NCBI GenBank assembly: GCA_964513645.1
Contig: CAZENF010000001.1
Span: forward strand, 200,022-264,021
Reading direction: 5' to 3'
Length of the DNA stretch: 64,000 nucleotides
Source: an uncultured Candidatus Saccharibacteria bacterium
GTDB taxonomy: Bacteria; Patescibacteriota; Minisyncoccia; 2-02-FULL-40-12; GWA2-44-9
A program made the position numbers and the translations under genes. The notes beneath the pieces are model-generated. The model had not been told where the DNA came from, did not search any database, and saw nothing but the letters and a program-made list of their open reading frames with translations. Positions 27,439 to 49,693 of this stretch are shown piece after piece (position 1 is the first letter of the stretch; each line of letters opens with the position of its first letter).

Positions 27439-28290
27439 GTGATAATTGTTAATCTAATAGGCGGTTTAGGCAACCAATTGTTTCAATATTCCCTGGGTCG
27501 CCGTCTGGCTCTCAAAAATAAAACCGGACTCCGTCTGGATATTTTTGATTTTAAAAATTATGAAAACCGGTCTTTCTTGCTCGATAATTTTAATATTCGA
27601 GAGTCTTTGGCCACAAAACTGGAAATTATGAGATTGAAGTTCATGAGTTCTTTCGGTTCCAAGCCCTACTATGAAAAATCTGCTATTTATGAAAAGAGTC
27701 TGTCCTTTGACCCAAACATCCTGCATGCCCCCGCAAATTGTTATTTAAAAGGTTATTGGCAAAGTGAAAGATATTTTAAAGATATTGATGATGTTATTAG
27801 ATCAGAAATTACTCTTAAAAATCCGCCGAGTCCGGAATATCTGAAGATTTCCCAAGATATTCATAATTCCAATTCGGTTTCTCTCCATATTCGCCGTTCG
27901 GATTATTTATCCGGGAAAAATAAGAATATCTTTGCCGAGTGTTCGCCTGATTACTATAACAAGGCAATAGATGAGATATCTAAAAAAGTTGGCAATATAA
28001 AATTGTATTTATTTTCCGATGACATAGACTGGGTTAAAAATAATTTACAATTATCCTATCCGTCAGAATTTGTTTCAGACAAAAAGCTTCCGGTCTACGA
28101 AGAACTAATGCTGATGAGCTCATGTAAGCACAATGTTATCGCCAACAGTTCTTTCAGCTGGTGGGGTGCCTGGTTAAATAACAATTCTCAAAAAATAGTT
28201 ATCGCCCCTGAAAAATGGTTCCTCGGTCCCGAAATTAATCCGAGGTTCCAATCAAGCGATATTGTTCCCTCTTCTTGGCTAAAAATGTGA
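27439..28290 (+). CDS. Alpha-1,2-fucosyltransferase-like glycosyltransferase, family GT11
   Basis: 283 aa; N-terminal GGLGNQLFQYSLG and HIRRSDY, both GT11 hallmarks. Confidence 0.85.
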   Translation: MIIVNLIGGLGNQLFQYSLGRRLALKNKTGLRLDIFDFKNYENRSFLLDNFNIRESLATKLEIMRLKFMSSFGSKPYYEKSAIYEKSLSFDPNILHAPANCYLKGYWQSERYFKDIDDVIRSEITLKNPPSPEYLKISQDIHNSNSVSLHIRRSDYLSGKNKNIFAECSPDYYNKAIDEISKKVGNIKLYLFSDDIDWVKNNLQLSYPSEFVSDKKLPVYEELMLMSSCKHNVIANSSFSWWGAWLNNNSQKIVIAPEKWFLGPEINPRFQSSDIVPSSWLKM

Positions 28291-29176: not shown

Positions 29177-29291
29177 ACTGCAAAATAAAAACCGTTACGA
29201 AAAGGACTGTTTTTTGTTATATATCCTTGATTGACAATGTAGATTTTTAATGATATTGTCTCGCACAAGCACTTTACCAATTGAGGATCTG

Positions 29292-30266
29292 ATGATAAAA
29301 AAAGTTCTGATAACCGGAATTAACGGTTCCGGCGCAAGTTACTTGGCCGAATACATAGTTAATCGCCATCCTGAAATTGACCTTTACGGGACGTTTCGCT
29401 CTTTAACTAATCTTAAAAATATTGAAACTATTTATGACCGAATCTTTCCTTTGCTATGTTCATTGACTGATACCGCTTTTCTTGAAAAAAAATTAAGAAC
29501 AATAAATCCTGATCTGATATTCCACATCGCCTCTTATGCCGATGTAAGAGCATCCTGGGATAGAATTCCTTTTGTTTTACAAAACAACATCGGTCTTACC
29601 GTAAATTTACTTGAAGCCGTCCGTCACGTCGGAATAAAACCAAAGATACAGATCTGCAGCACTCCGGAAGTCTACGGCCAGGTTGATCCGAAAAATATTC
29701 CGATCGACGAAAGCTGTCCGATAAATCCTTCGAATCCTTATGCGGTATCGAAATATGCTCAAGAGTCCCTGGCCTATTCCTACTACAAAGGCTTCGGGAT
29801 ACCCGTTGTTATCACCCGAATGTCGACCTATATCAATCCGCGCCGGCAAGATCTTTTTGCCACTTCTTTCGCAATGCAGGTAGCTCGGATCGAAGCCGGA
29901 CTCCAAAAAACATTACTTCACGGCAACCTTGAATCAACAAGAACGATCTTAGATGCCCGAGATTGTGCAAGAGCATACTGGTATGCACTTGAAAAATGTG
30001 ATGTCGGTCAAGTTTATAATATCGGCGGAAAAGTTATAGTCACTGTCGGTGATTTTCTTGAAATTCTCAAGAAAAAAGCCCGTTGTCCCATTCCCTCAGA
30101 GGTTGATCCTAAACTTCTGCGCCCGAATGACGCAACTCTACAGATCATCAACAGCCAGAAGTTCATTTCACAGACCGGCTGGCAGCCTAATTATAGTTTC
30201 GAAGAAAGTGTCGACCTTCTTCTGGACCATTGTCGTAAGGTCGTACAAAAGGAGTATAAGCTGTGA
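29292..30266 (+). CDS. GDP-sugar 4,6-dehydratase (Gmd/DmhA family)
   Basis: VLITGINGSGASYLAEYIV resembles ITGxTGQDGSYLAEFLL of Gmd. Catalytic triad region ICSTPEVYG and NPYAVSKYA. The ORF is open from 29250, but GAGGA plus ATG 29292 is the likely start. Confidence 0.7.
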   Translation: MIKKVLITGINGSGASYLAEYIVNRHPEIDLYGTFRSLTNLKNIETIYDRIFPLLCSLTDTAFLEKKLRTINPDLIFHIASYADVRASWDRIPFVLQNNIGLTVNLLEAVRHVGIKPKIQICSTPEVYGQVDPKNIPIDESCPINPSNPYAVSKYAQESLAYSYYKGFGIPVVITRMSTYINPRRQDLFATSFAMQVARIEAGLQKTLLHGNLESTRTILDARDCARAYWYALEKCDVGQVYNIGGKVIVTVGDFLEILKKKARCPIPSEVDPKLLRPNDATLQIINSQKFISQTGWQPNYSFEESVDLLLDHCRKVVQKEYKL

Positions 30267-31222
30267 AGAAGAAAAAAGTTCTGGTTTTGGGAGCAAGCGG
30301 ATTTATCGGACACAATCTGTTCAGAGATTTTTCCTCAAGAGACGATCTTGATGTTTACGGAACTTATTTTACCAACGACCGGACCGGAATTGATACCACC
30401 AATCCCCGCCTTTTTCATGTCGACCTGACGAACAAGGATTGGGTCGAAACCATCGTCAACGGTTACGACGTCCTGATACAGGCAGCCGCAACAACTTCAG
30501 GTTCAAAGATCATAAAAGAACATCCGGAACTCCACGTTACCGACAACGGCCTGATGAATCATCTTATCTTCAGGGCCGCTCATCACAACAATATTCCTCA
30601 TGTCATATATTTCAGCTGCACGATAATGTACAGCTTCGGTCACACCGCCCTGAAAGAAACCGACCTTGACCTAAACCGGGAGCTTGGCGATTACTTCGGA
30701 GCCGGCTGGACCAAAGTATATAACGAAAAACTTTGTGAATTTTATTCAAGACTTGGACGGACCCATTACACCGTTGTCAGACATTCAAATATTTACGGTC
30801 CTTATGACAAATTCGATCTCGAAAAATCTCATGTTTTCGGAGCCGCGATGAACAAAACCCTTAACCCGAAGAACGACAAGGTTGTTATCTGGGGTGACGG
30901 CAAAGAAAAAAGAGATCTCTTGTACGTAGACGATCTCGTCGAATTCGTCGGATTGGCAATGGATAAACAGAAAACTGTTTTTGAAATATTCAATGTCGGA
31001 TCCGGTGAAACAATATCCGTTAAAGAATTGTATGAAAAAATGGTTGCACATTCAGGAAGAAAAATAGAGCTTACTCACGACTTGTCTAAACCGACCTTCA
31101 AAGACAGTTCAATCACGATTGATATCGGCAAAGCCAAAGCCTTTGGCTGGACGCCCGGAACAAGCTTAGACGAAGGTATCCGAAAAACCATGGCCTGGTA
31201 TCTCGAAAACTTAAATAAATAG
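30263..31222 (+). CDS. NAD(P)-dependent epimerase/reductase (extended SDR; nucleotide-sugar 4-reductase/epimerase candidate)
   Basis: 319 aa; VLVLGASGFIGHNL Rossmann motif and YGPYDKF. Confidence 0.7.
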   Translation: MKKKKVLVLGASGFIGHNLFRDFSSRDDLDVYGTYFTNDRTGIDTTNPRLFHVDLTNKDWVETIVNGYDVLIQAAATTSGSKIIKEHPELHVTDNGLMNHLIFRAAHHNNIPHVIYFSCTIMYSFGHTALKETDLDLNRELGDYFGAGWTKVYNEKLCEFYSRLGRTHYTVVRHSNIYGPYDKFDLEKSHVFGAAMNKTLNPKNDKVVIWGDGKEKRDLLYVDDLVEFVGLAMDKQKTVFEIFNVGSGETISVKELYEKMVAHSGRKIELTHDLSKPTFKDSSITIDIGKAKAFGWTPGTSLDEGIRKTMAWYLENLNK

Positions 31223-32424: not shown

Positions 32425-33132
32425 ATGGCTAAGATAAAATATCTCATCACCGGAGGAAGTGGAAGACTGGGCACACAGATAAGAAACAGAATCTCGTCTG
32501 TTTATCCGACCACAAAACAACTGGATATTTTGAAACCGGTCCAAATAGAAAAATATTTGTCCGACAAAACTGTCGGGGCGGTCCTCCACCTTGCGGCCGT
32601 ATGCGATATGGCCAAAACAGAGAAAGACCACGACCTGACATACCGGGTCAACGTTATCGGAACAAGAAATATCGCCCAGGCAGCCAAAAAATATAATAAA
32701 AAAATTATATACATATCTTCAGATTATATATTTCCGGGCACCAAAGGAAACTATAAAGAGACCGACACTCCCCAGCCGGCAAACTGGTATGGTTACACCA
32801 AGTATGCGGGAGAACTTGAGATTCGGAACTTAACCGACAACTACCTGATAATAAGAACGAGTTTTCGGCCGTTAATTTGGTCCTTCCCTACTGCCTACAC
32901 GAATGTTTATACCAGCGCAGATTATATAGATGTTATTGCGGATGAGATAAAAACAGCTTTAAACCTCGGGCTGTCCGGAATTGTTAATATCGGTACCCCG
33001 GTAAAAACATTTTATGACCTCGCAAAACAACGAAATTCGAAAGTATTGCCTGAAGAATGTAAAAATGATAATTTTCCCAAAAGAAGAGACCTATCCATCG
33101 CAAAATGGTTAAAAATAAAAAAACAATCTTAG
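32425..33132 (+). CDS. dTDP-4-dehydrorhamnose reductase (RmlD)-like NAD(P)H-dependent sugar-nucleotide reductase, compact form
   Basis: 235 aa; ITGGSGRLG and WYGYTKYAGE (RmlD-type YGxxKxxGE). Confidence 0.65.
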   Translation: MAKIKYLITGGSGRLGTQIRNRISSVYPTTKQLDILKPVQIEKYLSDKTVGAVLHLAAVCDMAKTEKDHDLTYRVNVIGTRNIAQAAKKYNKKIIYISSDYIFPGTKGNYKETDTPQPANWYGYTKYAGELEIRNLTDNYLIIRTSFRPLIWSFPTAYTNVYTSADYIDVIADEIKTALNLGLSGIVNIGTPVKTFYDLAKQRNSKVLPEECKNDNFPKRRDLSIAKWLKIKKQS

Positions 33133-34046
33133 TCTTAGGTGGAACGGGTTTTATAGGAAAAAACCTTATCCGAACTCTTTCCGCCCGAAAAGACCGTCGG
33201 ATAATTTCCGCATCAAAAAGCACCGGACTCGACTTGCTTGACCTTAAACAAGTTAGAAAGTATTTCGGAAAAGTCAAACCCGATGTAATAATTAATTGCG
33301 CCGCCCACACTGGCAGTCTTCACTATGTCACCGCTAAATCAGCCGATGTTTTAAATGATAACGTAGCGATGACGTTGAATATTTACAATGCCGTCCGGAG
33401 CGAATGTCCTGATGCAAAAATAATAAATCCCCTTTCAAATTGCTCCTATCCCGGAGATGCGAACATACACTTTGAGCCTGACTGGTTCAACGGACATGTA
33501 CATGACTCCGTATATTCCTACGGAAATGCCAAGCGTTTTATTTATATAATATCCCGTTGTTATCAGAAGCAATACGGAATTAAAACGGTAAATTTTCTTC
33601 TGCCAAATACTTTCGGGCCGGGAGACCATGCCGATGCCAATAAAGTCCACGCTCTGAACGGAATGATCATCCGGATGATAAAGGCAGATAAAGAAAAAGC
33701 TCCGGCTTTTGAAATCTGGGGCACCGGAAAACCAATAAGAGAATGGGCTTATGTTGACGACGTGATAAACATTCTCAAGGCCGGAATAGATACACAACAC
33801 GACTTGATTTATCCGGTCAATATGGGCCAAAATAGAGGATATTCGATAAAGCAATCAGCAAAACTTATCGCCCAAGCTCTCGGTTATAAAGGTAAATTAG
33901 TATTCAACACCAAATATCAGGACGGTGCCCCGATAAAGATCCTGGACAATAAAAAATTTAAAAAAATGTTCCCTAAATTCAGATTCACGGATCACAAAAA
34001 AGGAATTAAAAACACAGTCGAGTATTATAAATCAATCTTAACTTAA
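33105..34046 (+). CDS. GDP-L-fucose synthase (GMER/Fcl)-like epimerase-reductase
   Basis: 313 aa; ILVLGGTGFIGKNL, DLLDL, PDVIINCAAHTG, and LSNCSYPGD which resembles the LGSSCIYP motif of Fcl. Confidence 0.65.
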   Translation: MVKNKKTILVLGGTGFIGKNLIRTLSARKDRRIISASKSTGLDLLDLKQVRKYFGKVKPDVIINCAAHTGSLHYVTAKSADVLNDNVAMTLNIYNAVRSECPDAKIINPLSNCSYPGDANIHFEPDWFNGHVHDSVYSYGNAKRFIYIISRCYQKQYGIKTVNFLLPNTFGPGDHADANKVHALNGMIIRMIKADKEKAPAFEIWGTGKPIREWAYVDDVINILKAGIDTQHDLIYPVNMGQNRGYSIKQSAKLIAQALGYKGKLVFNTKYQDGAPIKILDNKKFKKMFPKFRFTDHKKGIKNTVEYYKSILT

Positions 34047-37199: not shown

Positions 37200-38765
37200 A
37201 TGAAAAAGCGTATAATCGCCCGTCTTGACATAAAAGGACCTAACGTCATCAAGGGCGTACAATTTGAATGTCTTAGAGTAATGGGAAAACCAGCCGATTT
37301 GGCTCAAAAATATTACGAACAAGGAGCGGATGAAATAATCTATTTGGACACTGTTGCCAGTCTCTACCGGCGAAATAATATTTTAAATATCGTCAAAGAA
37401 GCATCCCAGAATATTTTTATCCCTTTCATTGCGGGTGGAGGTGTAAGAACCTTGGAGGATATCCGTTCTCTTCTGGCCGCTGGTGCCGAAAAAGTTGCGA
37501 TCAATACCGCCGCCACTAAAAATCCAGAACTCATCCGACAAGCCGCAAAAAGATTTGGCTCTCAATGTATTGTGCTTTCCATCGAAGCTAAACTTATCTC
37601 GCCCGGCAAATGGGAAGCTTATACGGACAATGGCAGACAACGAACCGGACTTGATGTTGTTAACTGGGCCAAACACGGTGAAAAACTCGGGGCCGGAGAA
37701 ATCTTGCTTACTTCAGTGGATATGGACGGGACAGAAAGAGGTTTAGACCTTGAACTTATCCGGGCTGTAACCGAATCTGTTTCTATCCCAGTTATTGCGT
37801 CAGGCGGCATCGGTTCAGTTGAAGATATTTCTGAATGTCTGAAAGGGACAAAAACTGATGCAGTAGCCACAGCAAGTATTCTTCATTACAACAAATCAGA
37901 TATTCCGGCGATAAAAAAAGAACTGATTAAAAACAGAATCGAGGTCAGGCCTGTGACGGATCTAAAGGACCGAAAAAACCAGAATACCAAATACGACAGC
38001 AAAAATTACAACAAACACACTCTGAAACATTTAAGAGGAGTCATCGGCTCTTCAGTCGACCGAATAGATCAGAAACAAAATATCCGGACACTCGAAAAGG
38101 ATTATCCTAAAGGGACGGCTGACATCGGCATAATTGATTACAAAATAAACAATGTAATGAGCGTGGTGAGGGCTTTCCAGAAAATAGGTCAAAAAATTTC
38201 TATTATCGAAAAACCTTCCGAACTTCGCCAAGTAAAAGCACTGGTCCTGCCCGGAGTGGGATCATTCGGAGACGGCATGAAAGCATTGAACGGATCAAAA
38301 TTCGTTGAACCTTTGAGACAGCTCGCTAAACAAGGCGTGCCTGTCTTGGGCATATGTCTCGGAATGCAGATGCTTTTTTCGGAAAGCCAGGAATTCGGCA
38401 AACATAAGGGCCTGGGTCTCGTTCCCGGAAAAGTAATCCCCTTCAAGCCCGTCGGCCAGGTCAGGTTGAACGATTATAAACTTCCTCATATCGGCTGGAA
38501 TAAAACTACCGCCACATCTCGAAAGACATCTGCTCTTATGTCGGGCATCAATGATTCCGACGTATATTTTGTACATTCCTTTTACCCCAAGCCGGAAAAT
38601 AAAGACATTGTTATTGGTACAACAGAATACGGAGACCAGAAATTCTGCGCTGTATTCCAAAAAGACAACATCATGGGCGCACAATTTCACCCTGAAAAAA
38701 GCGGAGAAGTGGGGTTGACCCTTTTAAGAAATTTCTGTAAAATAATTTCTGTTAAAAATAATTAG
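37200..38765 (+). CDS. Fused imidazole-glycerol-phosphate-synthase-like protein: HisF-type cyclase domain (N-terminal) plus HisH-type class I glutamine amidotransferase domain (C-terminal); WbuZ/WbuY-like
   Basis: 521 aa. N-terminal IIARLDIKG...GADEIIYLD...IAGGGVRT...SIPVIASGGIG follows the HisF pattern. C-terminal VLPGVGSFGDG...GICLGMQMLF...VHSFY...QFHPEKS gives the GATase Cys-His-Glu triad. A roughly 60-aa linker joins the two. Confidence 0.85.
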   Translation: MKKRIIARLDIKGPNVIKGVQFECLRVMGKPADLAQKYYEQGADEIIYLDTVASLYRRNNILNIVKEASQNIFIPFIAGGGVRTLEDIRSLLAAGAEKVAINTAATKNPELIRQAAKRFGSQCIVLSIEAKLISPGKWEAYTDNGRQRTGLDVVNWAKHGEKLGAGEILLTSVDMDGTERGLDLELIRAVTESVSIPVIASGGIGSVEDISECLKGTKTDAVATASILHYNKSDIPAIKKELIKNRIEVRPVTDLKDRKNQNTKYDSKNYNKHTLKHLRGVIGSSVDRIDQKQNIRTLEKDYPKGTADIGIIDYKINNVMSVVRAFQKIGQKISIIEKPSELRQVKALVLPGVGSFGDGMKALNGSKFVEPLRQLAKQGVPVLGICLGMQMLFSESQEFGKHKGLGLVPGKVIPFKPVGQVRLNDYKLPHIGWNKTTATSRKTSALMSGINDSDVYFVHSFYPKPENKDIVIGTTEYGDQKFCAVFQKDNIMGAQFHPEKSGEVGLTLLRNFCKIISVKNN

Positions 38766-38775
38766 CCCGTCCTCA

Positions 38776-40053
38776 ATGGATATAAAATTAAAATTTCCAT
38801 CTCTCAAAATAGACGAGAAAAAGTACAAAAATTACCCGTTTAAAACGGTTGACCGTCAGTTGGCGATATTGCCGAAAAAAGTTCAGTTCTGTGCAAAATG
38901 CATCATGTCAAATCAAAGGCCAAGAACCGATTTTGATTATGAAGGAGTTTGCAACGCCTGCCGGTATGCCGAACAAAAATTCGGCGGCAAGATCGACTGG
39001 GGAAAAAGAGAAAAAGAACTTGTCAGACTTCTGGATAAATACCGCTCTAAGGACGGCAGCTGGGATGTCGTTGTTCCGGGCAGCGCAGGCAAGGACAGCA
39101 GTTTGGTCACGGACCAGCTCAAAAAATACGGCATGCACCCGTTAGCTGTAACCTGGGCGCCATTCATATATACCGATATCGGCTGGCAGAATTACTTCAA
39201 TATGATCCAGGCCGGATTCGACGGTATTCTGGCTTGGCCCAACGGAATTTTGCACCGCAAACTGGCTAGGGTTGCTTTTGAATTAAAAGGCGACCCGTGG
39301 GAACCTTTCACCTTCGGTCAGAAGGCCTATGCTTTCCAGATCGCGGCCAAATTCAAGATCCCTCTGATGTTCTACGGTGAGAACGGAGAGGTGGAATACG
39401 GAGGTTCCTTCAAGAACGCAAACAAACCTTATGAGTCGCCGGATGACTGGGATGAACTGTACTTTAAAGGCGCGGGCATAGATGTCCTCTTACAGGAAGG
39501 ATATAAGATGGGGATTTTCACCAAAGAAGAACTGGCCAACAATCAGTTCGAGCTTTACAAACCGCCTCCGAAAAAAGATATCAAAGACCTCGGACTTCAG
39601 ATGCATTGGTGGTCATATTACAAACTTTGGGTCCCGCAGGAGAATTTTTACTATGCGGCAAAAAATACAGGATTTGAAGCAAGTCCGACCCGCACCGAAG
39701 GCACTTATACCAAATCTTTCAGTATTGATGACCGTCTCGACCCGTTTCACTGGTATCTGGCTTACGTTAAATTTGGTTACGGCCGGGCAACCCGTGAAGC
39801 ATGCAGTGATATAAGATGCGGCCACATAACCCGAGAAGAGGGCGTAGCTTTGGCCCAACGGTACGACCACGAATTCCCAAAAACATATTTCCACGAATTT
39901 TTGGCTTATCTCGATATAAGTGAAAAACATTTCTGGGAGATTCTTGAGAAATACCGTTCTCCGCGTGTGTGGACCAAAGAAAACAATAAATGGAAGCGTA
40001 AAATAATAGTTTCCAATAAAAGCGTTTATGGCGAAAAACCCAAACACGAATAA
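38776..40053 (+). CDS. N-acetyl sugar amidotransferase (WbpG/PseA/LfnA family, PP-loop ATP pyrophosphatase)
   Basis: 425 aa; N-terminal zinc-ribbon CAKC...CNAC and PP-loop VVPGSAGKDSS (SGGKDS-type). Confidence 0.85.
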   Translation: MDIKLKFPSLKIDEKKYKNYPFKTVDRQLAILPKKVQFCAKCIMSNQRPRTDFDYEGVCNACRYAEQKFGGKIDWGKREKELVRLLDKYRSKDGSWDVVVPGSAGKDSSLVTDQLKKYGMHPLAVTWAPFIYTDIGWQNYFNMIQAGFDGILAWPNGILHRKLARVAFELKGDPWEPFTFGQKAYAFQIAAKFKIPLMFYGENGEVEYGGSFKNANKPYESPDDWDELYFKGAGIDVLLQEGYKMGIFTKEELANNQFELYKPPPKKDIKDLGLQMHWWSYYKLWVPQENFYYAAKNTGFEASPTRTEGTYTKSFSIDDRLDPFHWYLAYVKFGYGRATREACSDIRCGHITREEGVALAQRYDHEFPKTYFHEFLAYLDISEKHFWEILEKYRSPRVWTKENNKWKRKIIVSNKSVYGEKPKHE

Positions 40054-40762
40054 AAACTTGGCGATAATTCCGGCCCGTTCAGGTTCAAAAGGCATACCCG
40101 GAAAAAATATTAAACAATTCTGCGGCAAGCCCCTTATCGCTCACACGATAGACCAGGCAAAGAAAAGCAGAATTTTTGACCGGATATTGGTTGATACCGA
40201 CAGTGCCAAGATATCCTCGATCGCCCGTAAATATGGAGCCGAAACCCCTTTCTTAAGACCGGCCGAACTGGCCGGAGACAAAGCCCAGGTCACAGATGCA
40301 GTTCTGCTTTTGCTTGAACGCCTTAAGAGTTCAGAAAATTACGCTCCTGATGTAATTACTCTCCTTCAGACCACTTCTCCTCTCCGCGAAGTATCCGATA
40401 TTTTGAACTGCGCAAAACTTATCGCCGATCCGAAGGTCCGGTCGCTCTGCACGATCTGCGAGACACATCACCGTCTTTATCATTTATCTTCTGAAGGAAA
40501 GCTCATCCTGGTTAATAGGCCAAATCATGACAATCAAAACCGTCAGGCCTGGCCTGAATGCTATATCCTGAACGGCTGCATGGTTTACATGGTCCGCACC
40601 GGGCATTTTATAGAAACACGTAAATTCGTCGACGAAAATACCTATGGTGTTACTTGCGATAAATGGCGTTCGGTAGATCTCGATAATCCGGCAGACTGGG
40701 TATTGGCCGAAACACTTTATAAGAATAAAAGCAAAATCAATGCCAAACTTAAAAAAATATAA
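40028..40762 (+). CDS. Acylneuraminate (CMP-nonulosonic acid) cytidylyltransferase, NeuA/LegF/PseF family
   Basis: LAIIPARSGSKGIPGKN, the canonical CMP-NeuAc synthetase N-terminus. The ATG at 40028 overlaps the upstream gene by 26 nt. A TTG at 40058 is an alternative start. Confidence 0.85.
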   Translation: MAKNPNTNKNLAIIPARSGSKGIPGKNIKQFCGKPLIAHTIDQAKKSRIFDRILVDTDSAKISSIARKYGAETPFLRPAELAGDKAQVTDAVLLLLERLKSSENYAPDVITLLQTTSPLREVSDILNCAKLIADPKVRSLCTICETHHRLYHLSSEGKLILVNRPNHDNQNRQAWPECYILNGCMVYMVRTGHFIETRKFVDENTYGVTCDKWRSVDLDNPADWVLAETLYKNKSKINAKLKKI

Positions 40763-41774: not shown

Positions 41775-42836
41775 ATGCCCAAAAACCTTAAAATTGGCAA
41801 CCATATTATCGGACCTCGCGAGCCGGTTTTTATCATTGCCGAGGCCGGAGTAAACCATAACGGACGCCTTGACCTTGCCCTGAAGCTGATAGACGCCGCC
41901 GCCGATGCGGGAGCAGATGCGGTCAAATTCCAGACATTTAAAGCGGAGCAGGTCACGATTGGCAGTGGTGAAATGGCCGATTATCAAAAAAGAAATATAG
42001 GCAAAACAATGTCCCAAATAGAGATGGTCCGCGGATTGGAAATTAAAGACGCTTGGTACCGTGCCCTCTTACGACATTGTAACAAGAAAAATATAATTTT
42101 TATGTCCGCTCCTCATGGCCACACCGTAAGCGCGGATCTTCTCAAAAAACTAAGACTTAAAGTTTACAAGATAGCTTCCGGCGACCTGATCAACCGTCCC
42201 CTTTTGGAACATGTTGCGCACTTTGATAAGCCGATGATAATTTCAAGCGGCATGGCTGATATGGCCGAAGTTAAAGAAGCTGTCGCCTGGGTTAAAAAGG
42301 CAGATAACGACAAAGTGGTGGTCCTTCATTGCACAACAAACTATCCATGCCCGGCTGAAGAAGTTAACTTGGCCGCAATGCAGACAATAATGAAACAACT
42401 TCCTGGGATTCCCGTCGGTTATTCCGACCACACCCGAGACAATCAGGCGAGTCTGATGGCGGTAACCCTCGGAGCGTGTGTCATAGAAAAACATCTGACT
42501 CTGGATAAAAATTTACCAGGACCTGATCATAAAGGCTCGCTCGAACCCGAAGAATTTAAAGCATTTGTGAAAGCGCTCCGAAACGTTTCAGTAATTTTAG
42601 GCAGTCCCGACAAAAAACCCAATAAAAGCGAACTTGAAACAATGAGAATAGTCCGCAAAAGCATTGTAACCACTGCCGCTATCAGAAAGGGTGAAAAATT
42701 AACGGAAAAAAATCTTGGCATCAAGCGTCCGGGAAACGGTATTCATCCGAAATACTACCACTCTCTGCTTGGCAAGAAGGCCAATAGAGATATTGCAAAC
42801 GACGTTCTGTTGGTTAAACAAGATATAAATGAGTAA
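41775..42836 (+). CDS. N-acetylneuraminate-synthase-family enzyme (NeuB/LegI/PseI; nonulosonic acid synthase) with C-terminal SAF domain
   Basis: 353 aa; FIIAEAGVNHNG...AGADAVKFQTF, TIM-barrel aldolase motifs of NeuB. Confidence 0.9.
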   Translation: MPKNLKIGNHIIGPREPVFIIAEAGVNHNGRLDLALKLIDAAADAGADAVKFQTFKAEQVTIGSGEMADYQKRNIGKTMSQIEMVRGLEIKDAWYRALLRHCNKKNIIFMSAPHGHTVSADLLKKLRLKVYKIASGDLINRPLLEHVAHFDKPMIISSGMADMAEVKEAVAWVKKADNDKVVVLHCTTNYPCPAEEVNLAAMQTIMKQLPGIPVGYSDHTRDNQASLMAVTLGACVIEKHLTLDKNLPGPDHKGSLEPEEFKAFVKALRNVSVILGSPDKKPNKSELETMRIVRKSIVTTAAIRKGEKLTEKNLGIKRPGNGIHPKYYHSLLGKKANRDIANDVLLVKQDINE

Positions 42837-43947
42837 CTTGAGGAAAAAATTGCTTTTCGTAACCGGTACCCGCGCCGAATATGGCTTGGCCAGAGCTACG
42901 CTTTTAGAATTGGCAAAGCTTAACTCCATAGATTTGAGGACTTTGGCCACCGGTATGCACACTTTAAAAAAATATGGCCTGACCCTGAATGAGATCAAAA
43001 AAGACATTAAAATTAACTGTATTGTGCCGATAAAAGAATCGGACGACATGATAACGGCTTTGACAAAAGAGATCAATGGTATTCAAGGATACGTTCAAAA
43101 AGAAAAAATTGACACAATAATCATTATCGGAGACCGGGACGAAGCATTTGCCGCGGCAACGGTCGGAGTACATTTGGGTATTCCTGTGATTCATGTGTCC
43201 GGCGGAGATGTTTCAGGGCCTTCCGTCGACCATTACTTACGCAATGCCATTACCGTTTTTTCTAAGCTCCACCTTGTTCAAACCGAACAGGCCGCCAAAA
43301 ACGTGATACGCCTGGGAGCAGATCCGAAAACAGTTCATGTCGTCGGTTCGATGGGTCTCCACGGATTAAACGGAAAAAATTTAAAAAACCGGAACGAGAT
43401 AGCCAGAGGAATCGGGCTTGATGCAAAAATGCCTTGGTATCTTATCGCCTATCATCCGACCATTTTCAGCAAAACAGGATTTCAAGAACAGATAGAACCG
43501 GTTCTTTCAGCCCTTAAAGACTTGGGTGAAAAAAGTGAAAAGATAATAATATATCCGAATTCTGATATGGGTTCGGATGTCTTCATAAAAAACGTTGAGA
43601 AACTCAGGAAAAATTCGCGCTATCACATCTTCAGAAACCTTGGCCGGGAATCATTTTTAGCCGCCCTTTATCACAGCGAAGCAATGATAGGCAACTCGAG
43701 CGCCGGGCTTTTTGAAGCCGGTTTCCTCAAAAAACCCTTCATAAATATCGGTGAAAGACAGGCCGGACGCGAGCAGGGACCAAATGTTATGAATGTCGGA
43801 TATAAAGCCGGGTCAATTACAAAAGCCGTCAAAAATTCTTCGTCTGCCAAATTCAAAACCAAGCTTGCTAATTCCCTTTCCCTCTATCAAGGTGGCGATG
43901 TGGCCGGCAAGATAGCCGATATAATTGAAAAATTCCTTCATGAATAA
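42829..43947 (+). CDS. UDP/GDP-N-acetylglucosamine 2-epimerase (hydrolysing), NeuC/LegG-like
   Basis: 372 aa; LLFVTGTRAEYGLARA, GDRDEAFAAA and HVSGGDVSG, typical of hydrolysing 2-epimerases. Confidence 0.85.
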   Translation: MSNLRKKLLFVTGTRAEYGLARATLLELAKLNSIDLRTLATGMHTLKKYGLTLNEIKKDIKINCIVPIKESDDMITALTKEINGIQGYVQKEKIDTIIIIGDRDEAFAAATVGVHLGIPVIHVSGGDVSGPSVDHYLRNAITVFSKLHLVQTEQAAKNVIRLGADPKTVHVVGSMGLHGLNGKNLKNRNEIARGIGLDAKMPWYLIAYHPTIFSKTGFQEQIEPVLSALKDLGEKSEKIIIYPNSDMGSDVFIKNVEKLRKNSRYHIFRNLGRESFLAALYHSEAMIGNSSAGLFEAGFLKKPFINIGERQAGREQGPNVMNVGYKAGSITKAVKNSSSAKFKTKLANSLSLYQGGDVAGKIADIIEKFLHE

Positions 43948-45616
43948 ATTTCCAAAAATAAAATTTGAAGACAATCAGATACATTCGACTTACAGCGACG
44001 GCCAAAGAACATTGGAAGAAATATTTGAATACAACCATTATCATGACAAGCTTGATATAACTCTGACCGATCATGTCGACAAGAATACGGATTGGTTCGA
44101 TAAGTATGTGGAAAATATAAAAAAGCTCAGAAAAAAATACCCTTCATTCTCGGCCAAGATAGGATGTGAAGTTAAGATCTTGGACGACGGGACACTGAAT
44201 ACAACAGCCGATATACTCAAAAAGGCCGAAGTCGTTATCGGCAGCGTTCATAATTTCAAAAACATTAAAACCCTAAGTGCAGATGAGTTGGTCAAGGAAG
44301 AATACCGATTAACAAAGGTCTTGGCGGAAAACAAAAAAATAGACATCCTCGGACACCCGTTCAGTATGGCCAAGAGGTTCTTTAATGCCGAACCACCTTT
44401 AAAGTATATGAGGGATATCTACGAAATCTGCGTTAAGAGCGGGATAAAGTTCGAATATAACAAGAAAAATTCACCAGAAAATGTCAAAAAGTTCATACTG
44501 GAGAAAATAGCCGAAGGAAAGATAGATACTTTTTCTTTCGGGAGCGATATGCATGCCGCTCTTTCTGAAATCGGCAATTCTGCTTTTGATATTTCTCCGG
44601 CCGTTAATGTTCTGGTTACCGGCGCGGGAGCCGGAGTCGGCCAGAGTATTATAAAATCTTTGAAATTATCCAATCTGAAGATACGGATAATCAGCGCCGA
44701 CAATAGCCATTTGGCCGCCGGGTTATACAGAAGTGACGCCGCCTATCTTATCCCCAAATACGACGAGAAGGATTATATTCCACGGATAATAGAAATCTGT
44801 AAAAAAGAAAGGGTAAATGTGGTCCTCATCGGAACGGATGTAGAACTTGGAATAATTGCTAAAAATAAAAAATATATCGAATCGGGAACAGGAGCATATG
44901 CCGCAGTAAGTCACCCGGAAACAGTGGCGATCGCGGATGATAAATGGAAAACCGCCGAGTTTCTGAAAAAGAACGGTTTCCCATACCCTCGCTCCTGGTC
45001 AGGCCCAAATGAAAAAGCGTTAGAAAAACTTAAATACCCGGTAATAGTAAAGCCCAGAATCGGCGCACGTTCTATCGGATTCAAGATAATAAATACAAGA
45101 AAAGAACTTAAGGCCGAACTGTCAGCTTCTCCAAATCTTATCGTACAGGAACTCCTTTCGGGTGAAAACAAAGAATACACCTGCGGAACCCTATTCTTAG
45201 GTGGTAAAAATTACGGGGTTGTTCCTGCACAGCGTTGGCTCCGGAACGGCGATACTTACAAAGCTTATTTCAGACACGACAAAAAACTGGAAAAATTCAT
45301 TTCTTCTGTCGGCAAAAAATTAAAAATAGACGGTCCGTGCAATTTCCAATTAAGAAAGACCCTCCGCGGGCCGGTGATATTCGAAATAAATGCCCGTTTT
45401 TCCGGCACTTCCGGCGCGGCAAGTTTTCTTGGATTTAACGGCGCAAATGCTCTTATCCAGCATAAGATCTTTGGCCGCAGGATAACCGGTCTTGATTTTA
45501 AAGAGGCGCGGATGTTCCGGTATTGGAACGAGGTTTTCGCTGAAAATTCGAATACGGAATCCTTGGCTAAAAACCGACGGCACGATGAAATTAATTCCGA
45601 GATAAATATTTTCTAA
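43925..45616 (+). CDS. Two-domain fusion: N-terminal PHP-type (histidinol-phosphatase-like) metal-dependent phosphoesterase plus C-terminal ATP-grasp ligase
   Basis: 563 aa. PHP motifs IHSTYSDG, ITLTDHVD, GCEV and IGSVHNF. ATP-grasp part YPVIVKPRIGARSIGF, LIVQELLSG and FEINARFSG. Confidence 0.65.
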   Translation: MKNSFMNKFPKIKFEDNQIHSTYSDGQRTLEEIFEYNHYHDKLDITLTDHVDKNTDWFDKYVENIKKLRKKYPSFSAKIGCEVKILDDGTLNTTADILKKAEVVIGSVHNFKNIKTLSADELVKEEYRLTKVLAENKKIDILGHPFSMAKRFFNAEPPLKYMRDIYEICVKSGIKFEYNKKNSPENVKKFILEKIAEGKIDTFSFGSDMHAALSEIGNSAFDISPAVNVLVTGAGAGVGQSIIKSLKLSNLKIRIISADNSHLAAGLYRSDAAYLIPKYDEKDYIPRIIEICKKERVNVVLIGTDVELGIIAKNKKYIESGTGAYAAVSHPETVAIADDKWKTAEFLKKNGFPYPRSWSGPNEKALEKLKYPVIVKPRIGARSIGFKIINTRKELKAELSASPNLIVQELLSGENKEYTCGTLFLGGKNYGVVPAQRWLRNGDTYKAYFRHDKKLEKFISSVGKKLKIDGPCNFQLRKTLRGPVIFEINARFSGTSGAASFLGFNGANALIQHKIFGRRITGLDFKEARMFRYWNEVFAENSNTESLAKNRRHDEINSEINIF

Positions 45617-45619
45617 CCC

Positions 45620-46747
45620 ATGCCCAAGAAACATTACCCTGTCGCGAGACCATATATAACCAAGGACGAAGAACTCTCGGTTCTCGAGGTTTTGCGTTCG
45701 GGCAATTTAAGCTTAGGGCCGAAATACAGAGAATTCGAACAAAAATTCGCAAAAAAAATAGGCAGAAAATATGCCTGTACTGTTTCAAGCGGCACCGCCG
45801 GACTCCATTTGGCGATGCTCACCGCAAGAATAAAACCCGGAGATGAAGTCATAACCTCCCCGTTCTCGTTCGTTGCATCAGCCAATTCTATCCTCTATGT
45901 CGGAGCAAAGCCGGTATTTGTGGATATAGACCCGAAAACCTACAACATTAATCCTTCGAAGATCGAAACTGTCGTCACCAAAAAAACAAAAGCGATATTG
46001 GTTGTCCATATTTTCGGCCAGACATCGGATATGGAACAGATCCATAAAATAGCCAAAAAATATAATTTAAAAATAATCGAAGATGCTTGTGAATCCTTCG
46101 GCGCAACATACAAAGGAAAAAATGCCGGTACTTTCGGTGAATCGGCCGTTTTCGCATTTTACCCGAACAAACAAATGACCACAGGCGAGGGCGGAATGAT
46201 CGTTACGGATGATAAAAAAATCCATGACACTTGTTCGAGCTTAAAAAACCAAGGACGCTCGGATGATCTTCAATGGCTCGACCACAACCGTCTCGGCTAC
46301 AATTACCGGATGGATGAATTAAGTGCGGCTCTTGGCATAACCCAACTTTCCAAGATAGACTATTTACTCAATGAACGGGTTAAGATAGCCGCTCTCTACA
46401 CAAAATATCTTTCTCCCCATTCCAACCTTATCCAAGTACCTTTAACCGATAAGAACAATAAACATAGCTGGTTTGTCTACGTGGTTACGATAAAGGACAA
46501 AAATATCAAAAGAGATGAACTGGTCCTGGCGCTTGCAAAAGAAGGAATAAACACAAAACCCTATCTTCCCTCCATCCATTTATTTAGTTTTTACAAAGAT
46601 AAGTTCGGATTCAAGAAAGGCGACTTTCCCGTATCGGAAAAAGTCAGTAATTCGTCCTTAGCTTTACCACTTTATATAGGGTTGAAAGAAGCGGACATTA
46701 AATATATAGTAGGGGGGCTAATAAATGCTCTAAATAGACATGCTTAA
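45620..46747 (+). CDS. DegT/DnrJ/EryC1 family PLP-dependent sugar aminotransferase (PseC/LegC/PglE-like)
   Basis: 375 aa; ...VSSGTAGLHLA... and FAFYPNKQMTTGEGG with the catalytic Lys present. Confidence 0.85.
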   Translation: MPKKHYPVARPYITKDEELSVLEVLRSGNLSLGPKYREFEQKFAKKIGRKYACTVSSGTAGLHLAMLTARIKPGDEVITSPFSFVASANSILYVGAKPVFVDIDPKTYNINPSKIETVVTKKTKAILVVHIFGQTSDMEQIHKIAKKYNLKIIEDACESFGATYKGKNAGTFGESAVFAFYPNKQMTTGEGGMIVTDDKKIHDTCSSLKNQGRSDDLQWLDHNRLGYNYRMDELSAALGITQLSKIDYLLNERVKIAALYTKYLSPHSNLIQVPLTDKNNKHSWFVYVVTIKDKNIKRDELVLALAKEGINTKPYLPSIHLFSFYKDKFGFKKGDFPVSEKVSNSSLALPLYIGLKEADIKYIVGGLINALNRHA

Positions 46748-47756
46748 CGATAAATTCAAAGAACAATTCTCTGATAAAGTTATCCTTGTTACCGGCGGAA
46801 CCGGCTCTATTGGCTCTGCCCTGATCAAGGAACTTTTGCCATATAACCCGAATCAGATAAGGGTTTTTTCACGCGACCAGAACAAACAGTACGATCTTAT
46901 GGAGGACCTCGGCGAACAGCCGAATGTCCGCTTTCTGGTCGGAGATATCAGGGACGAAAAACGCTTAAATCTGGCCATGGGCGGGGTTGATATCGTCTTC
47001 CATGCTGCAGCTCTAAAACACGTCCCCTCGTGTGAATATAACCCTTTTGAGGCGGTAAAGACCAATATCATCGGCTCCCAGAACGTGATCGAAGCCGCTC
47101 TGGCTCACGATGTCGAAAAAGTTATCGGGATATCGACAGATAAGGTCGTCCATCCGACCAGCGTTATGGGCACCTCCAAACTGATGATGGAAAAATTATT
47201 TTCAAGCGCATACCATTACATGGGTCAAAAGAGGACCAAATTCGCCTGCGTCCGTTTCGGAAATGTTGCCTGGTCAACCGCCTCGGTTCTGCCGATATGG
47301 AAAAAACAGATAGACAAACATGGCGAGATCCGCATTACCGACAAAAAAATGAGCCGCTTCCTGATGTCCAAAGAACAGGCCGCCCGATTAGTATTAAAAG
47401 CGGCCGAGATCACTAACGGCGATGAAATTTTCGTCCTGAAAATGTCAGCCATCAAACTCCCTCAGCTTGCCAAGATCTTCATAGAAAAATATGCTCCCGA
47501 TAAAAAAGTAAAGATAAAAATTATCGGCAACCGTGGCGGCGAAAAGATACATGAAGACCTTTTTTCAAGTTCGGACACAGAACAACGGCTGTACGAGAAC
47601 CAGGAAATGTTCATTTTGGTCCCAAGTATGAATCAATATGATGAGGGCGGCACGAACAAGCGGGAATATCCGGGATTCAAAAAAATAAAGAAAGAAAAAT
47701 TAAAACTCTCTTCTCACAATAATTTGAGCGTCTCGGAGGTCAAAAAAATAATATAG
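46740..47756 (+). CDS. UDP/GDP-N-acetylglucosamine 4,6-dehydratase (PseB/LegB/FlaA1/CapD-like)
   Basis: 338 aa; ILVTGGTGSIGSAL, FSRDQNKQ, GDIRD and HAAALKHVP. Confidence 0.85.
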   Translation: MLNDKFKEQFSDKVILVTGGTGSIGSALIKELLPYNPNQIRVFSRDQNKQYDLMEDLGEQPNVRFLVGDIRDEKRLNLAMGGVDIVFHAAALKHVPSCEYNPFEAVKTNIIGSQNVIEAALAHDVEKVIGISTDKVVHPTSVMGTSKLMMEKLFSSAYHYMGQKRTKFACVRFGNVAWSTASVLPIWKKQIDKHGEIRITDKKMSRFLMSKEQAARLVLKAAEITNGDEIFVLKMSAIKLPQLAKIFIEKYAPDKKVKIKIIGNRGGEKIHEDLFSSSDTEQRLYENQEMFILVPSMNQYDEGGTNKREYPGFKKIKKEKLKLSSHNNLSVSEVKKII

Positions 47757-48728: not shown

Positions 48729-49693
48729 TGAGCCAGAAATTTGAAAAAAATGAGATTTTATTGGTGGGGGCAGGTTATATGGCAACAGAGTACGCCAAGG
48801 TTTTGAAGGCCATGAGAATTAAATTTACTGTCATTGGAAATTCACAGGTTTCGGCTGAAAAGTTTGCTCTTGAAGCAGGAATTCAGCCGATAACCGGCGG
48901 CATAGAGAAATGGGTCAGAAATCAAAGTAAAATACCCTCATCAGCCATAATCGCCACAAACGTTGAGACCCTCGGCAAAATAACAAGATTACTCCTTAAA
49001 AAAGGTGTAAAAAATATTCTGCTTGAAAAGCCGGGCGGCTTAGAAATTAATAACATCAAAAAGACCGCCGGTCTTGCCCGTTCAAAAAACGCCGGTGTTT
49101 ATATTGCCTACAATCGAAGATTCTATGCTTCGACCGCAAAAGCCGGGGAAATAATAAAACAGGACGGCGGATTGTTATCGGTGGTGTTCGAATTTACGGA
49201 ATGGAGCAATCTGATAGAAAGGTCAGACAAATCTCCTTTAAAAATTAAAAAGCACTGGCTGACGGCAAATTCAAGCCATGTCATAGATCTTGCTTTTTAT
49301 GTCGCGGGCTGGCCCAAACTTATATCCTCCTATAAACTCGGGCGCCTTGCCTGGCATCCGTCAGGAGCAATTTTTGGCGGAGCGGGCATAACTGAGAAAA
49401 AGGCCGTTTTTTCTTATCACGCCAATTGGCAGTCGGCCGGCCGCTGGGGCATAGAATTTATGACCATTAAAAACCGCTTGATACTAAGGCCGCTTGAAAA
49501 ACTTTTTATTCAAAAAAGGGATTCGCTTGAGCTGAATCAGGTGGAGATCGATGACGAGCTTGATAAAAAATTCAAACCCGGACTGTACAAGCAGGTTGAA
49601 TCTTTTCTCGGCCCTAAAAACAACCTGGTTACCGTAAACGATCAACTTGAACATTACAAGATATTCGAATCTATCAATAAAGGTCTGAATTAA
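48728..49693 (+). CDS. Gfo/Idh/MocA family oxidoreductase
   Basis: 321 aa; LLVGAGYMATEYA and the EKP motif ILLEKPGGLE. Confidence 0.65.
   Translation: MSQKFEKNEILLVGAGYMATEYAKVLKAMRIKFTVIGNSQVSAEKFALEAGIQPITGGIEKWVRNQSKIPSSAIIATNVETLGKITRLLLKKGVKNILLEKPGGLEINNIKKTAGLARSKNAGVYIAYNRRFYASTAKAGEIIKQDGGLLSVVFEFTEWSNLIERSDKSPLKIKKHWLTANSSHVIDLAFYVAGWPKLISSYKLGRLAWHPSGAIFGGAGITEKKAVFSYHANWQSAGRWGIEFMTIKNRLILRPLEKLFIQKRDSLELNQVEIDDELDKKFKPGLYKQVESFLGPKNNLVTVNDQLEHYKIFESINKGLN

What the first reader, a model, noticed from the sequence alone, without database searches (positions are those of the whole stretch)
37200..40053. HisF-HisH fusion in cyclase-then-glutaminase order, coupled to a WbpG-type N-acetyl-sugar amidotransferase
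A single 521-aa ORF carries a complete HisF-like (beta/alpha)8 cyclase domain followed by a complete HisH-like class I glutaminase (GICLGMQ, HSF, QFHPEKS). The domains are joined by a roughly 60-aa low-complexity linker (KDRKNQNTKYDSKNYNKHT...). In glycan loci (wbpG-hisH-hisF, wbuX-wbuY-wbuZ) these are normally separate genes. The eukaryotic HIS7 fusion has the opposite order, glutaminase first. Immediately downstream is the PP-loop amidotransferase (SAGKDS). The trio is the machinery that converts an acetamido group into an acetamidino group, as in Leg5Am7Ac of Legionella and Campylobacter and WbpG products of Pseudomonas.
Basis: seen in the sequence. Interest (0 to 1): 0.5.

Follow-up and report, generated by a model that had tools for sequence, protein, structure and literature searches.

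The report
Fused HisF-HisH ammonia module, nonulosonate locus
A real single gene joins a HisF-like barrel to a HisH-like glutaminase next to a sugar amidotransferase in a sialic-acid-like sugar pathway; this fused form is common in uncultured microbes, so it is a modest variant of a known system, not a rarity.

Summary
ORF 37200-38765 (+, 521 aa) encodes a HisF-like barrel (aa 1-250), a 55-aa linker and a HisH-like glutaminase (aa 306-521). A WbuX/NASAT-type PP-loop amidotransferase follows 10 nt downstream, inside a NeuB/NeuC/CMP-transferase nonulosonate cassette.

It is not an assembly artefact. More than 150 full-length F->H fusions exist (46-69% identity) in Omnitrophota, CPR, Woesearchaeota and similar metagenomes, always followed by WbuX and flanked by the same pathway genes.

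The domain order follows the ancestral gene order. About 58 genomes, including cultured Polaromonas, Bradyrhizobium and Cohnella, carry separate adjacent hisF-then-hisH genes beside WbuX. The one opposite-order (H->F) bacterial fusion whose context could be read sits in a histidine operon.

The F->H lineage never has Asp at the cyclase Asp130 position (Glu/Gln/Ala in 252 of 263, versus 82/82 Asp on the canonical side). It keeps the ammonia-gate residues.

The linker carries a conserved helix motif (D-Y-N-K-Y/F-T-L-x-H-L). That motif co-occurs with a clade-specific N-terminal extension on WbuX.

Best reading: a glutamine-dependent ammonia supply module for acetamido-to-acetamidino conversion. 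It is a new variant of a known kind, of modest interest.

The parts
37200..38765 (+). Fused HisF-like/HisH-like gene (521 aa)
   Evidence: AF2 mean pLDDT 92.3 and pTM 0.93; >150 full-length fused homologues
37200..37949 (+). HisF-like (beta/alpha)8 barrel domain, aa 1-250. Gate residues R4, E45, K98, E167 plus D10 and K18 are conserved. Glu129 replaces the cyclase Asp130.
   Evidence: Alignment to T. maritima and other HisF structures; residue census by clade
37950..38114 (+). 55-aa inter-domain linker, aa 251-305
   Evidence: pLDDT 79-52 across the linker; no tandem repeat
37989..38033 (+). Conserved linker motif KYDSKNYNKHTLKHL (family consensus Y-D-[IVL]-x-[DN]-Y-N-[KR]-[FY]-T-L-[RK]-[HQ]-L), modelled partly as a helix (aa 272-281)
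   Evidence: 58 of 151 by strict regex, with degenerate versions in other long-linker members; helix with pLDDT ~76
38115..38765 (+). HisH-like class I glutaminase domain, aa 306-521. Contains C386, H497, E499, the PGVG oxyanion strand at aa 351 and K500.
38776..40053 (+). WbuX/NASAT-family N-acetyl sugar amidotransferase (425 aa). PP-loop SAGKDS at aa 103; Zn Cys4 at C39, C42, C59, C62.
   Evidence: TIGR03573 at 326.6 bits; PDB 8WEX at E = 1.5e-96; AF2 pLDDT 92.7
38776..38889 (+). Clade-specific N-terminal extension of WbuX (aa 1-38, MDIKLKFPSLKIDEKKYKNYPFKTVDRQLAILPKKVQF)
   Evidence: Present only next to long-linker FH fusions; modelled as ordered, pLDDT 88-97
40028..40762 (+). CMP-nonulosonate cytidylyltransferase-like gene
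   Evidence: PF02348 and a PseF-like match at 154 bits
40740..41774 (+). GFO/IDH/MocA oxidoreductase, conserved in the cassette
   Evidence: syntenic in L081
41775..42836 (+). NeuB-type nonulosonate synthase
   Evidence: TIGR03569 at 437 bits, above the 399.65 cutoff
42829..43947 (+). NeuC-type hydrolysing 2-epimerase
   Evidence: TIGR03568 at 349.5 bits, above the 235.9 cutoff
43925..45616 (+). PHP-domain plus ATP-grasp fusion, conserved in the cassette
   Evidence: syntenic in L081 and L084
45620..46747 (+). PseC/LegC-like sugar aminotransferase
46740..47756 (+). PseB/FnlA-like UDP-GlcNAc 4,6-dehydratase

Best explanation
The 521-aa protein is a covalently fused version of the HisF-like/HisH-like pair that accompanies WbuX/WbpG/PseA-type N-acetyl sugar amidotransferases (the WbuZ/WbuY and AglZ/AglY pairs of the literature).

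Proposed mechanism:
- The C-terminal HisH domain hydrolyses glutamine using the triad Cys386-His497-Glu499.
- The ammonia passes through the gated central channel of the N-terminal HisF-like barrel (gate residues Arg4, Glu45, Lys98, Glu167).
- The ammonia reaches the adjacent PP-loop enzyme, gene 38776-40053.
- That enzyme activates the N-acetyl carbonyl of a 5,7-diamino-tetradeoxynonulosonate (Leg/Pse-type) intermediate with ATP.
- The activated carbonyl is converted to an acetamidino group.

The fusion arose by loss of the stop or overlap between adjacent hisF-then-hisH genes, which is the ancestral order in this lineage of loci.

Shown here: the domain architecture, residue conservation, recurrence of the fusion, synteny, and a confident two-domain packing in the model. 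Inferred: glutaminase activity, ammonia channelling to WbuX, the ATP-dependent amidine chemistry, and the identity of the sugar.
For: - Domains and motifs are confirmed.
- The triad, the PGVG strand, and the F-domain position matching T. maritima HisF Asp98 (Glu97 here; Asp in many family members) opposite the nearly invariant Lys500 are conserved. The gate residues are invariant or nearly so across 120 fusions. The Asp98-Lys181 contact itself is recalled from memory.
- AF2 gives pTM 0.93, which indicates a defined F/H packing.
- All six independent fused loci where I hold DNA (the window, L001, L003, L081/L082, L083, L084) have WbuX immediately downstream and nonulosonate pathway genes nearby; NeuB, NeuC and a CMP-transferase were all seen in five, and NeuB and NeuC in the truncated L003.
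- About 58 genomes carry separate hisF-then-hisH genes, 51 of them with WbuX within 3 kb and usually NeuB/NeuC/CMP-transferase nearby. L007 shows an ATGA stop/start overlap, so a one-base change could fuse the genes.
- An H->F fusion (P0169) lies in a his operon.
- The F->H clade has 0 of 263 Asp at the Asp130 position, against 82 of 82 on the canonical side.
- WbuX is homologous to the PP-loop/Zn structure 8WEX.
Against: - No biochemical data exist for this protein or for any NASAT.
- The F domain scores marginally above the NCBIfam hisF cutoff (295 vs 294.55) and below the WbuZ cutoff (276.9 vs 299.7).
- The F domain keeps Asp10, Lys18 and the residues that align with HisF's phosphate-binding sites (site identity is from memory). 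A pure ammonia conduit would not obviously need these.
- From memory of the TIGR03572 family description and King et al. 2008, the WbuY/WbuZ pair is dispensable for WbuX function in E. coli and Pseudomonas.
- No N-acetyltransferase was found among the window ORFs I scanned.
- The source genome outside the window could not be checked for a canonical his operon.
Confidence: 0.8

Rival explanations
1. The fusion is the organism's genuine imidazole glycerol phosphate synthase for histidine and purine metabolism, and merely sits in a glycan island.
For: The NCBIfam hisF equivalog scores 295 bits, just above its 294.55 cutoff, and public records name the homologues HisF or HisH. Asp10, Lys18, the gate residues and the positions matching HisF's phosphate sites are conserved.
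Against: - All six independent fused loci examined have WbuX and nonulosonate genes as neighbours and no his genes.
- The lineage never has Asp at the Asp130 position, and some members have Gln or Ala there.
- The one genuine his-operon fusion examined has the order H->F and groups on the other side of the tree root.
- For a genuine HisHF, the hisF model beats the WbuZ model by 46 bits. Here the gap is only 7-18 bits.
Confidence: 0.05
2. The single ORF is an artefact (a frameshift, a mis-assembly or a chimeric join) of two ordinary genes.
For: The source is a metagenome-type sequence. Separate-gene relatives have hisF and hisH only a few bases apart, or overlapping by ATGA.
Against: - At least 150 independent full-length fusions come from many studies and assemblers.
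- The closest relatives have the same length (518-531 aa).
- The linker carries a protein-level conserved motif, so it is translated in frame.
- There are no repeats in the linker DNA and GC content is even across it.
- AF2 models the whole chain confidently.
Confidence: 0.01
3. The HisF-like domain is catalytic in its own right. It would bind a phosphorylated or nucleotide-linked sugar at the barrel's C-terminal face, and either perform chemistry there or allosterically switch the glutaminase on, so that WbuX is not the only acceptor of the ammonia.
For: Asp10, Lys18 and the positions matching HisF's phosphate-binding motifs (GGG 79-81, N102-T103, D174/G177, G202-G203) are strongly conserved. 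A lineage-specific Asp-to-Glu change sits at position 129.
Against: Position 129 tolerates Gln (25) and Ala (6) in the clade, which argues against an essential acid/base role there. The tight, universal adjacency to WbuX fits a delivery role. No data address ligand binding.
Confidence: 0.12

Closest known systems
WbuX-WbuY-WbuZ (E. coli O145), WbpG-HisH2-HisF2 / LfnA (P. aeruginosa), PseA-Cj1315c-Cj1314c (C. jejuni), AglX-AglY-AglZ (Methanococcus maripaludis): acetamidino-sugar systems
   Same: The same three components are present: a PP-loop/Zn NASAT, a HisH-like glutaminase and a HisF-like barrel. They sit in a saccharide locus, here a NeuB/NeuC nonulosonate cassette.
   Different: Here F and H are one polypeptide in F->H order and lie upstream of X, giving FH-X. 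From memory, the named systems are X-H-F with separate genes. The F domain falls below the curated cutoffs of both TIGR03572 (WbuZ) and NF038364 (AglZ/HisF2). The lineage has Glu/Gln/Ala instead of Asp130.
Separate hisF-then-hisH pairs beside WbuX in Polaromonas, Bradyrhizobium, Ramlibacter, Devosia, Cohnella, Nitrospira, Obscuribacter and Sphingomonas (RS19260-19270, PMC11340318)
   Same: These group with the window's F domain on the same side of the NJ tree root (54-62% identity). They share the F->H order, the WbuX adjacency, the nonulosonate neighbours and the non-Asp residue at position 130.
   Different: They are two genes with a short gap or an overlap, usually in X-F-H order. They have no linker and no linker motif, and their WbuX lacks the N-terminal extension.
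Eukaryotic HIS7 / bacterial HisHF bifunctional IGP synthase (PDB 1JVN; Fani et al. 2007, PMC1963479)
   Same: It is a fusion of the same two domain families. It matches the window protein at E = 1.1e-60.
   Different: The order is the opposite, H->F. It functions in histidine biosynthesis: the one bacterial H->F fusion whose context I could read, P0169, lies in a hisG-C-B-HF-A/IE-D operon. Asp130 is retained.
LpNASAT, Legionella pneumophila (PDB 8WEX, PMC10607449)
   Same: It is a homologue of the downstream gene (E = 1.5e-96) and shares the PP-loop and the tetracysteine Zn site.
   Different: The window protein lacks the roughly 15-residue insert after the first Cys pair. It has a clade-specific 38-aa N-terminal extension. 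Its PP-loop reads SAGKDS rather than SGGKDS.

Membership tests
Imidazole glycerol phosphate synthase (HisH/HisF, histidine pathway) | HisH catalytic triad Cys-His-Glu and the PGVG oxyanion strand | tested here: met
   C386, H497 and E499 are invariant in 120 fusions; PGVG is at aa 351
Imidazole glycerol phosphate synthase (HisH/HisF, histidine pathway) | HisF ammonia-gate residues (T. maritima R5, E46, K99, E167) | tested here: met
   R4, E45, K98 and E167 are conserved
Imidazole glycerol phosphate synthase (HisH/HisF, histidine pathway) | Both cyclase catalytic aspartates (T. maritima D11 and D130) | tested here: not met
   D10 is present, but position 129 is Glu. The F->H clade has 0 of 263 Asp there (E 221, Q 25, A 6), against 82 of 82 Asp on the canonical side.
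Imidazole glycerol phosphate synthase (HisH/HisF, histidine pathway) | Genomic association with other his genes | tested here: not met
   No his genes in the window or in the fused loci examined (L001, L003, L081-L084). The rest of the source genome was not available.
Imidazole glycerol phosphate synthase (HisH/HisF, histidine pathway) | NCBIfam TIGR00735 hisF trusted cutoff | tested here: inconclusive
   295.0 vs 294.55 bits. Lineage members score 285-298, straddling the cutoff.
WbuY/WbuZ glycosyl-amidation-associated pair (TIGR03572) | A HisF paralogue next to a HisH paralogue and a WbuX-family gene in a saccharide locus | tested here: met
WbuY/WbuZ glycosyl-amidation-associated pair (TIGR03572) | Score above the TIGR03572 trusted cutoff (299.7 bits) | tested here: not met
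   276.9 bits. Separate-gene relatives score 281-291 bits.
AglZ/HisF2 family (NF038364) | Score above the cutoff (310 bits) | tested here: not met
   203 bits
WbuY/WbuZ and AglY/AglZ systems | Supplies glutamine-derived ammonia for acetamidino formation | not testable with these tools
   Needs enzymology or genetics
NASAT / WbuX family (TIGR03573) - the downstream gene | Model score, PP-loop and the CxxC...CxxC Zn motif | tested here: met
   326.6 bits vs the 203.2 cutoff; SAGKDS at aa 103; C39, C42, C59, C62; 8WEX at E = 1.5e-96
HIS7-type HisHF fusion | Glutaminase N-terminal, cyclase C-terminal | tested here: not met
   The order here is cyclase then glutaminase

The most novel reading that the evidence does not exclude
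In one clade spread across CPR, DPANN and Omnitrophota, the acetamidino machinery has become a tethered three-part channelling complex. The conserved linker helix (D-Y-N-K-Y/F-T-L-x-H-L) of the FH fusion and the clade-specific 38-aa N-terminal extension of WbuX would be a co-evolved docking pair. That pair would seat the PP-loop enzyme over the exit of the HisF-like barrel. The barrel's retained ligand site, with Glu replacing Asp130, would act as an allosteric switch coupling sugar binding to glutamine hydrolysis. If so, a HisF active site has been repurposed from catalysis to gating.
Probability: 0.2. Interest if true: 0.5.

Novelty: new variant of a known kind. Interest (0 to 1): 0.3.

Why it matters
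- It gives a natural single-chain form of the glutaminase/barrel module of acetamidino-sugar biosynthesis, a pathway with no enzymology so far. A single chain could make in vitro reconstitution with the NASAT partner easier.
- Fusion order (F->H versus H->F) appears to follow the ancestral operon order and the pathway. That supplies a simple annotation rule: an F->H fusion or pair, with a non-Asp residue at position 130 and an adjacent WbuX, is not histidine biosynthesis.
- Public annotation currently calls these proteins HisF or HisH. That can create false histidine-pathway calls in CPR, DPANN and Omnitrophota metabolic reconstructions.
- It adds evidence that ultra-small uncultured lineages share a mobile nonulosonate cassette that makes acetamidino-type sugars.

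Tried and rejected
- **Artefact or frameshift.** Rejected: the fusion recurs, the linker motif is conserved, and the linker DNA has no repeats.
- **Longer proteins as X-H-F triple fusions.** Rejected: the 587-933 aa hits are HisH-HisA-HisF types, and no WbuX fusion appears among the 120 best WbuX homologues.
- **WbuX N-terminal extension as a disordered docking peptide.** Not supported: AF2 models it as ordered, with pLDDT 88-97.
- **Single origin of the fusion.** Not supported as stated. On an NJ tree Fitch parsimony gives at least 16 state changes. One large clade holds most fusions (134 FH out of 145 leaves), but the internal branches are short and the tree is only indicative.
- **Source organism.** Not resolved. 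The exact protein is not in the contig index, the window is not in the GTDB representative set, and the window has no marker genes.
- **Literature.** Searches for an F->H fusion, for WbuXYZ and for AglXYZ found no description of this architecture. Several key papers are not in the searchable library.
- **P0153 (an H->F fusion) in a glycan locus.** Inconclusive: the contig is too short.
Full report
**1. The observation**

The + strand ORF 37200..38765 is an uninterrupted 521-codon frame starting with ATG.
- Pfam places His_biosynth at aa 4-232 (E = 1.8e-66) and class I GATase at aa 311-513 (E = 2.4e-23).
- NCBIfam gives hisF at 295 bits, WbuZ at 276.9 bits and HisH at 207 bits.
- Ten bases downstream, ORF 38776..40053 (425 aa) matches TIGR03573 (WbuX, N-acetyl sugar amidotransferase) at 326.6 bits against a cutoff of 203.2. 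It carries the PP-loop SAGKDS (aa 103) and a CxxC...CxxC motif.
- It is homologous (E = 1.5e-96) to the only solved family member, Legionella LpNASAT, PDB 8WEX.

The linker is 55 aa (aa 251-305).

**2. Context**

The genes that follow are co-directional and tightly packed:
- a CMP-sugar cytidylyltransferase;
- a GFO-family oxidoreductase;
- a NeuB-type synthase (437 bits, above cutoff);
- a NeuC-type hydrolysing 2-epimerase (349 bits, above cutoff);
- a PHP plus ATP-grasp protein;
- a PseC/LegC-like aminotransferase;
- a PseB/FnlA-like 4,6-dehydratase.

This is a 5,7-diamino-tetradeoxynonulosonate (Leg/Pse-family) cassette. The stereochemistry cannot be assigned from sequence. The rest of the window is one large glycan island: an ABC exporter, a carbamoyltransferase, three B12/radical-SAM proteins, further aminotransferases and many glycosyltransferases.

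**3. Is the fusion real?**

A search of 5.8 billion proteins returned 120 listed hits. All are full length (465-545 aa, 98-100% coverage, 46-69% identity) and all have the F->H architecture. The few that carry names come from Omnitrophota, Minisyncoccia and Buchananbacteria (both CPR), and Woesearchaeota.

Among the 150 best representatives of 50%-identity clusters, 31 are F->H fusions. The nearest relatives (67-69% identity) have almost the same length (518-531 aa). The linker DNA has no tandem repeat, and GC content is even across the gene. AlphaFold2 with a 120-sequence alignment gives mean pLDDT 92.3 and pTM 0.93, which indicates a defined packing of the two domains. An assembly or frameshift artefact is excluded for practical purposes.

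**4. Where the order comes from**

I scanned one genome per species, then checked ORFs and probed each locus with the window's F, H and X segments.
- Only two of the 80 loci are single-ORF fusions: L001 (Saccharibacteria MAG, with FH-X-CMPtr-NeuB-NeuC in the same order as the window) and L003 (Omnitrophota MAG).
- About 58 loci have separate hisF-then-hisH genes directly adjacent. In 51 of them a WbuX homologue lies within 3 kb, usually in X-F-H order and next to CMP-transferase, NeuB and NeuC. These include cultured Polaromonas, Bradyrhizobium, Ramlibacter, Devosia, Cohnella and Pseudomonas peli.
- In L007 the two genes overlap by ATGA, so a one-base change could fuse them.
- Sphingomonas has the same X-F-H arrangement as separate genes (PMC11340318).

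Fused homologues whose contigs I fetched show FH followed by a Pfam-less protein of 408-434 aa, matching WbuX in size and position, amid NeuB, NeuC, CMP-transferase, aminotransferase and dehydratase genes. These are L081/L082 (Minisyncoccia), L083 and L084 (Woesearchaeota); the WbuX-like N-terminus of each was confirmed.

By contrast, the H->F fusion P0169 lies in a classical his operon, hisG-hisC-hisB-hisHF-hisA/IE-hisD. It is the only opposite-order fusion whose context could be read; the rest group with HisA-HisF and HisH-HisA-HisF types in the tree. Fani et al. 2007 list only the H->F (HIS7) fusion (PMC1963479). Fusion order therefore appears to track the ancestral gene order and the pathway.

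**5. A distinct paralogue lineage**

An NJ tree of 345 F domains separates two groups. One holds canonical HisF, H->F, HisA-HisF and X-H-F sequences. The other, of 263 leaves, holds every separate F->H pair and nearly all F->H fusions.
- At the position of T. maritima HisF Asp130, the canonical side is 82 of 82 Asp. The F->H clade has no Asp at all (Glu 221, Gln 25, Ala 6). That this Asp is one of the two cyclase catalytic residues is established knowledge, cited from memory (Beismann-Driemeyer and Sterner 2001).
- The ammonia-gate residues (R4, E45, K98, E167), Asp10 and Lys18 are conserved in both groups.
- The HisH triad is invariant, and the HPEKS lysine (K500) nearly so.
- NCBIfam scores put the whole lineage between models: hisF at 285-298 bits (cutoff 294.55) and WbuZ at 275-291 bits (cutoff 299.7). 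A genuine HisHF scores 295 vs 249. This explains why public records label these proteins HisF or HisH.
- Parsimony on the tree suggests several fusion or fission events (at least 16 changes). Most fusions sit in one large clade (134 of 145 leaves). The tree is only indicative.

**6. The linker**

The linker is not just filler. Among 151 full-length fusions, 58 carry the strict motif [DNE]-Y-N-x-[YFHW]-T, always within the linker (positions 268-304). The surrounding consensus is Y-D-[IVL]-x-[DN]-Y-N-[KR]-[FY]-T-L-[RK]-[HQ]-L. Other long-linker members have degenerate versions. It is duplicated in a Woesearchaeota cluster and absent from short-linker fusions of 459-490 aa. AF2 models window aa 272-281 as a helix (pLDDT ~76) and aa 285-300 with low confidence.

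The WbuX partners of long-linker fusions all have a conserved 38-aa N-terminal extension, K-F-P-x-L-x-I-D-x-x-K-Y...Q-L-x-x-L-P.
- 25 of 25 pairs matched by contig have it.
- 5 of 5 long-linker loci with DNA have it (four independent, since L081 and L082 carry the same contig).
- It is absent from the 2 short-linker fused loci and from all 78 other WbuX genes.

AF2 models this extension as ordered (pLDDT 88-97). The two add-ons may be a co-evolved contact, or may simply mark one clade. That cannot be decided here.

**7. Mechanism**

The best-supported reading has four steps:
- The HisH domain releases ammonia from glutamine.
- The ammonia travels through the gated barrel.
- It reaches the neighbouring PP-loop enzyme.
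- That enzyme activates the acetamido carbonyl with ATP, releasing AMP and PPi, to form the amidine.

The PP-loop/Zn architecture is structural fact for 8WEX, but that paper reports no enzymology and does not mention HisH or HisF. The ammonia-supply role of the HisH/HisF paralogues comes from family descriptions and genetics that I cite from memory: the TIGR03572 description, King et al. 2008, and Jones et al. 2012. The retained positions that align with HisF's phosphate-binding sites, plus Asp10 and Lys18, leave room for a ligand-sensing or catalytic role of the barrel (rival 3).

**8. Verdict**

The finding is real, and its functional interpretation is the most likely one. It is not rare: it belongs to a large, automatically annotated but apparently undescribed family of fused WbuZ/WbuY-like proteins in uncultured lineages, and its domain order follows from gene order. 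It is a new variant of a known kind, of modest interest (0.3). The useful by-products are an annotation rule, the Asp130 discriminator, and the linker-motif/WbuX-extension pairing as a testable lead.

Noticed in passing
window 43925-45616 (+): A PHP (histidinol-phosphatase-like) domain is fused to a PylC-like ATP-grasp ligase. The gene is conserved in the same cassette position in L081 (556 aa), and in L084 (354 aa) with only ATP-grasp families recorded. It may add an aminoacyl or other acyl group to the nonulosonate amine.
   Followed up: partly
window 15147-17222, 24610-26760, 58057-59565 (+): Three large radical-SAM proteins, two with recognisable B12-binding domains, lie inside the glycan island. 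They may methylate or otherwise modify sugars.
   Followed up: no
window 10673-12379 (+); also L083 1256-3025 and L084 161-1918: A NodU/CmcH-type carbamoyltransferase recurs near the FH-WbuX cassette in unrelated MAGs, which suggests carbamoylated glycans.
   Followed up: no
window 49693-50577 (+): A weak MptE-like/Maf-type match (PF01973, 25.9 bits, below cutoff) lies just downstream of the nonulosonate genes. It is a candidate nonulosonate transferase.
   Followed up: no
window 1-64000: No LbH/GNAT N-acetyltransferase was detected among the roughly 50 ORFs scanned, although a NASAT needs an N-acetyl substrate. Not all ORFs were scanned.
   Followed up: partly
L036, L052, L053, L059, L073, L079, L080 (Ilumatobacteraceae and other Acidimicrobiia MAGs): These loci carry two WbuX copies in tandem modules: X-H-F, where the F groups on the canonical side of the tree, followed by X-F of the F->H clade with no HisH after it. 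A second F may share one glutaminase.
   Followed up: partly
L086 (P0153), 1953-bp contig: An H->F fusion that branches near the X-H-F glycan lineage is followed immediately by a second hisH-like gene. The upstream fragment could be a NASAT C-terminus, but BLAST did not confirm this.
   Followed up: partly
P0138, P0143, P0147, P0199; L085 7446-8726: HisH-HisA-HisF triple fusions of 587-933 aa exist, and a HisA-HisI-HisE fusion of 426 aa sits in a his operon. Both are further his-gene fusions beyond those listed in Fani et al. 2007.
   Followed up: no
L084 15264-17372 and 12093-13946: The Woesearchaeota cassette has a fused 4,6-dehydratase/aminotransferase (702 aa) and an extended NeuC (617 aa). 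Fusion of pathway neighbours seems to be a general trend in these small genomes.
   Followed up: no
window 27439-28290, 29250-31222, 33105-34046 (+): A GT11 fucosyltransferase-like gene lies with GDP-mannose dehydratase-like and GDP-fucose synthase-like genes. This looks like a deoxyhexose branch of the same glycan island.
   Followed up: no
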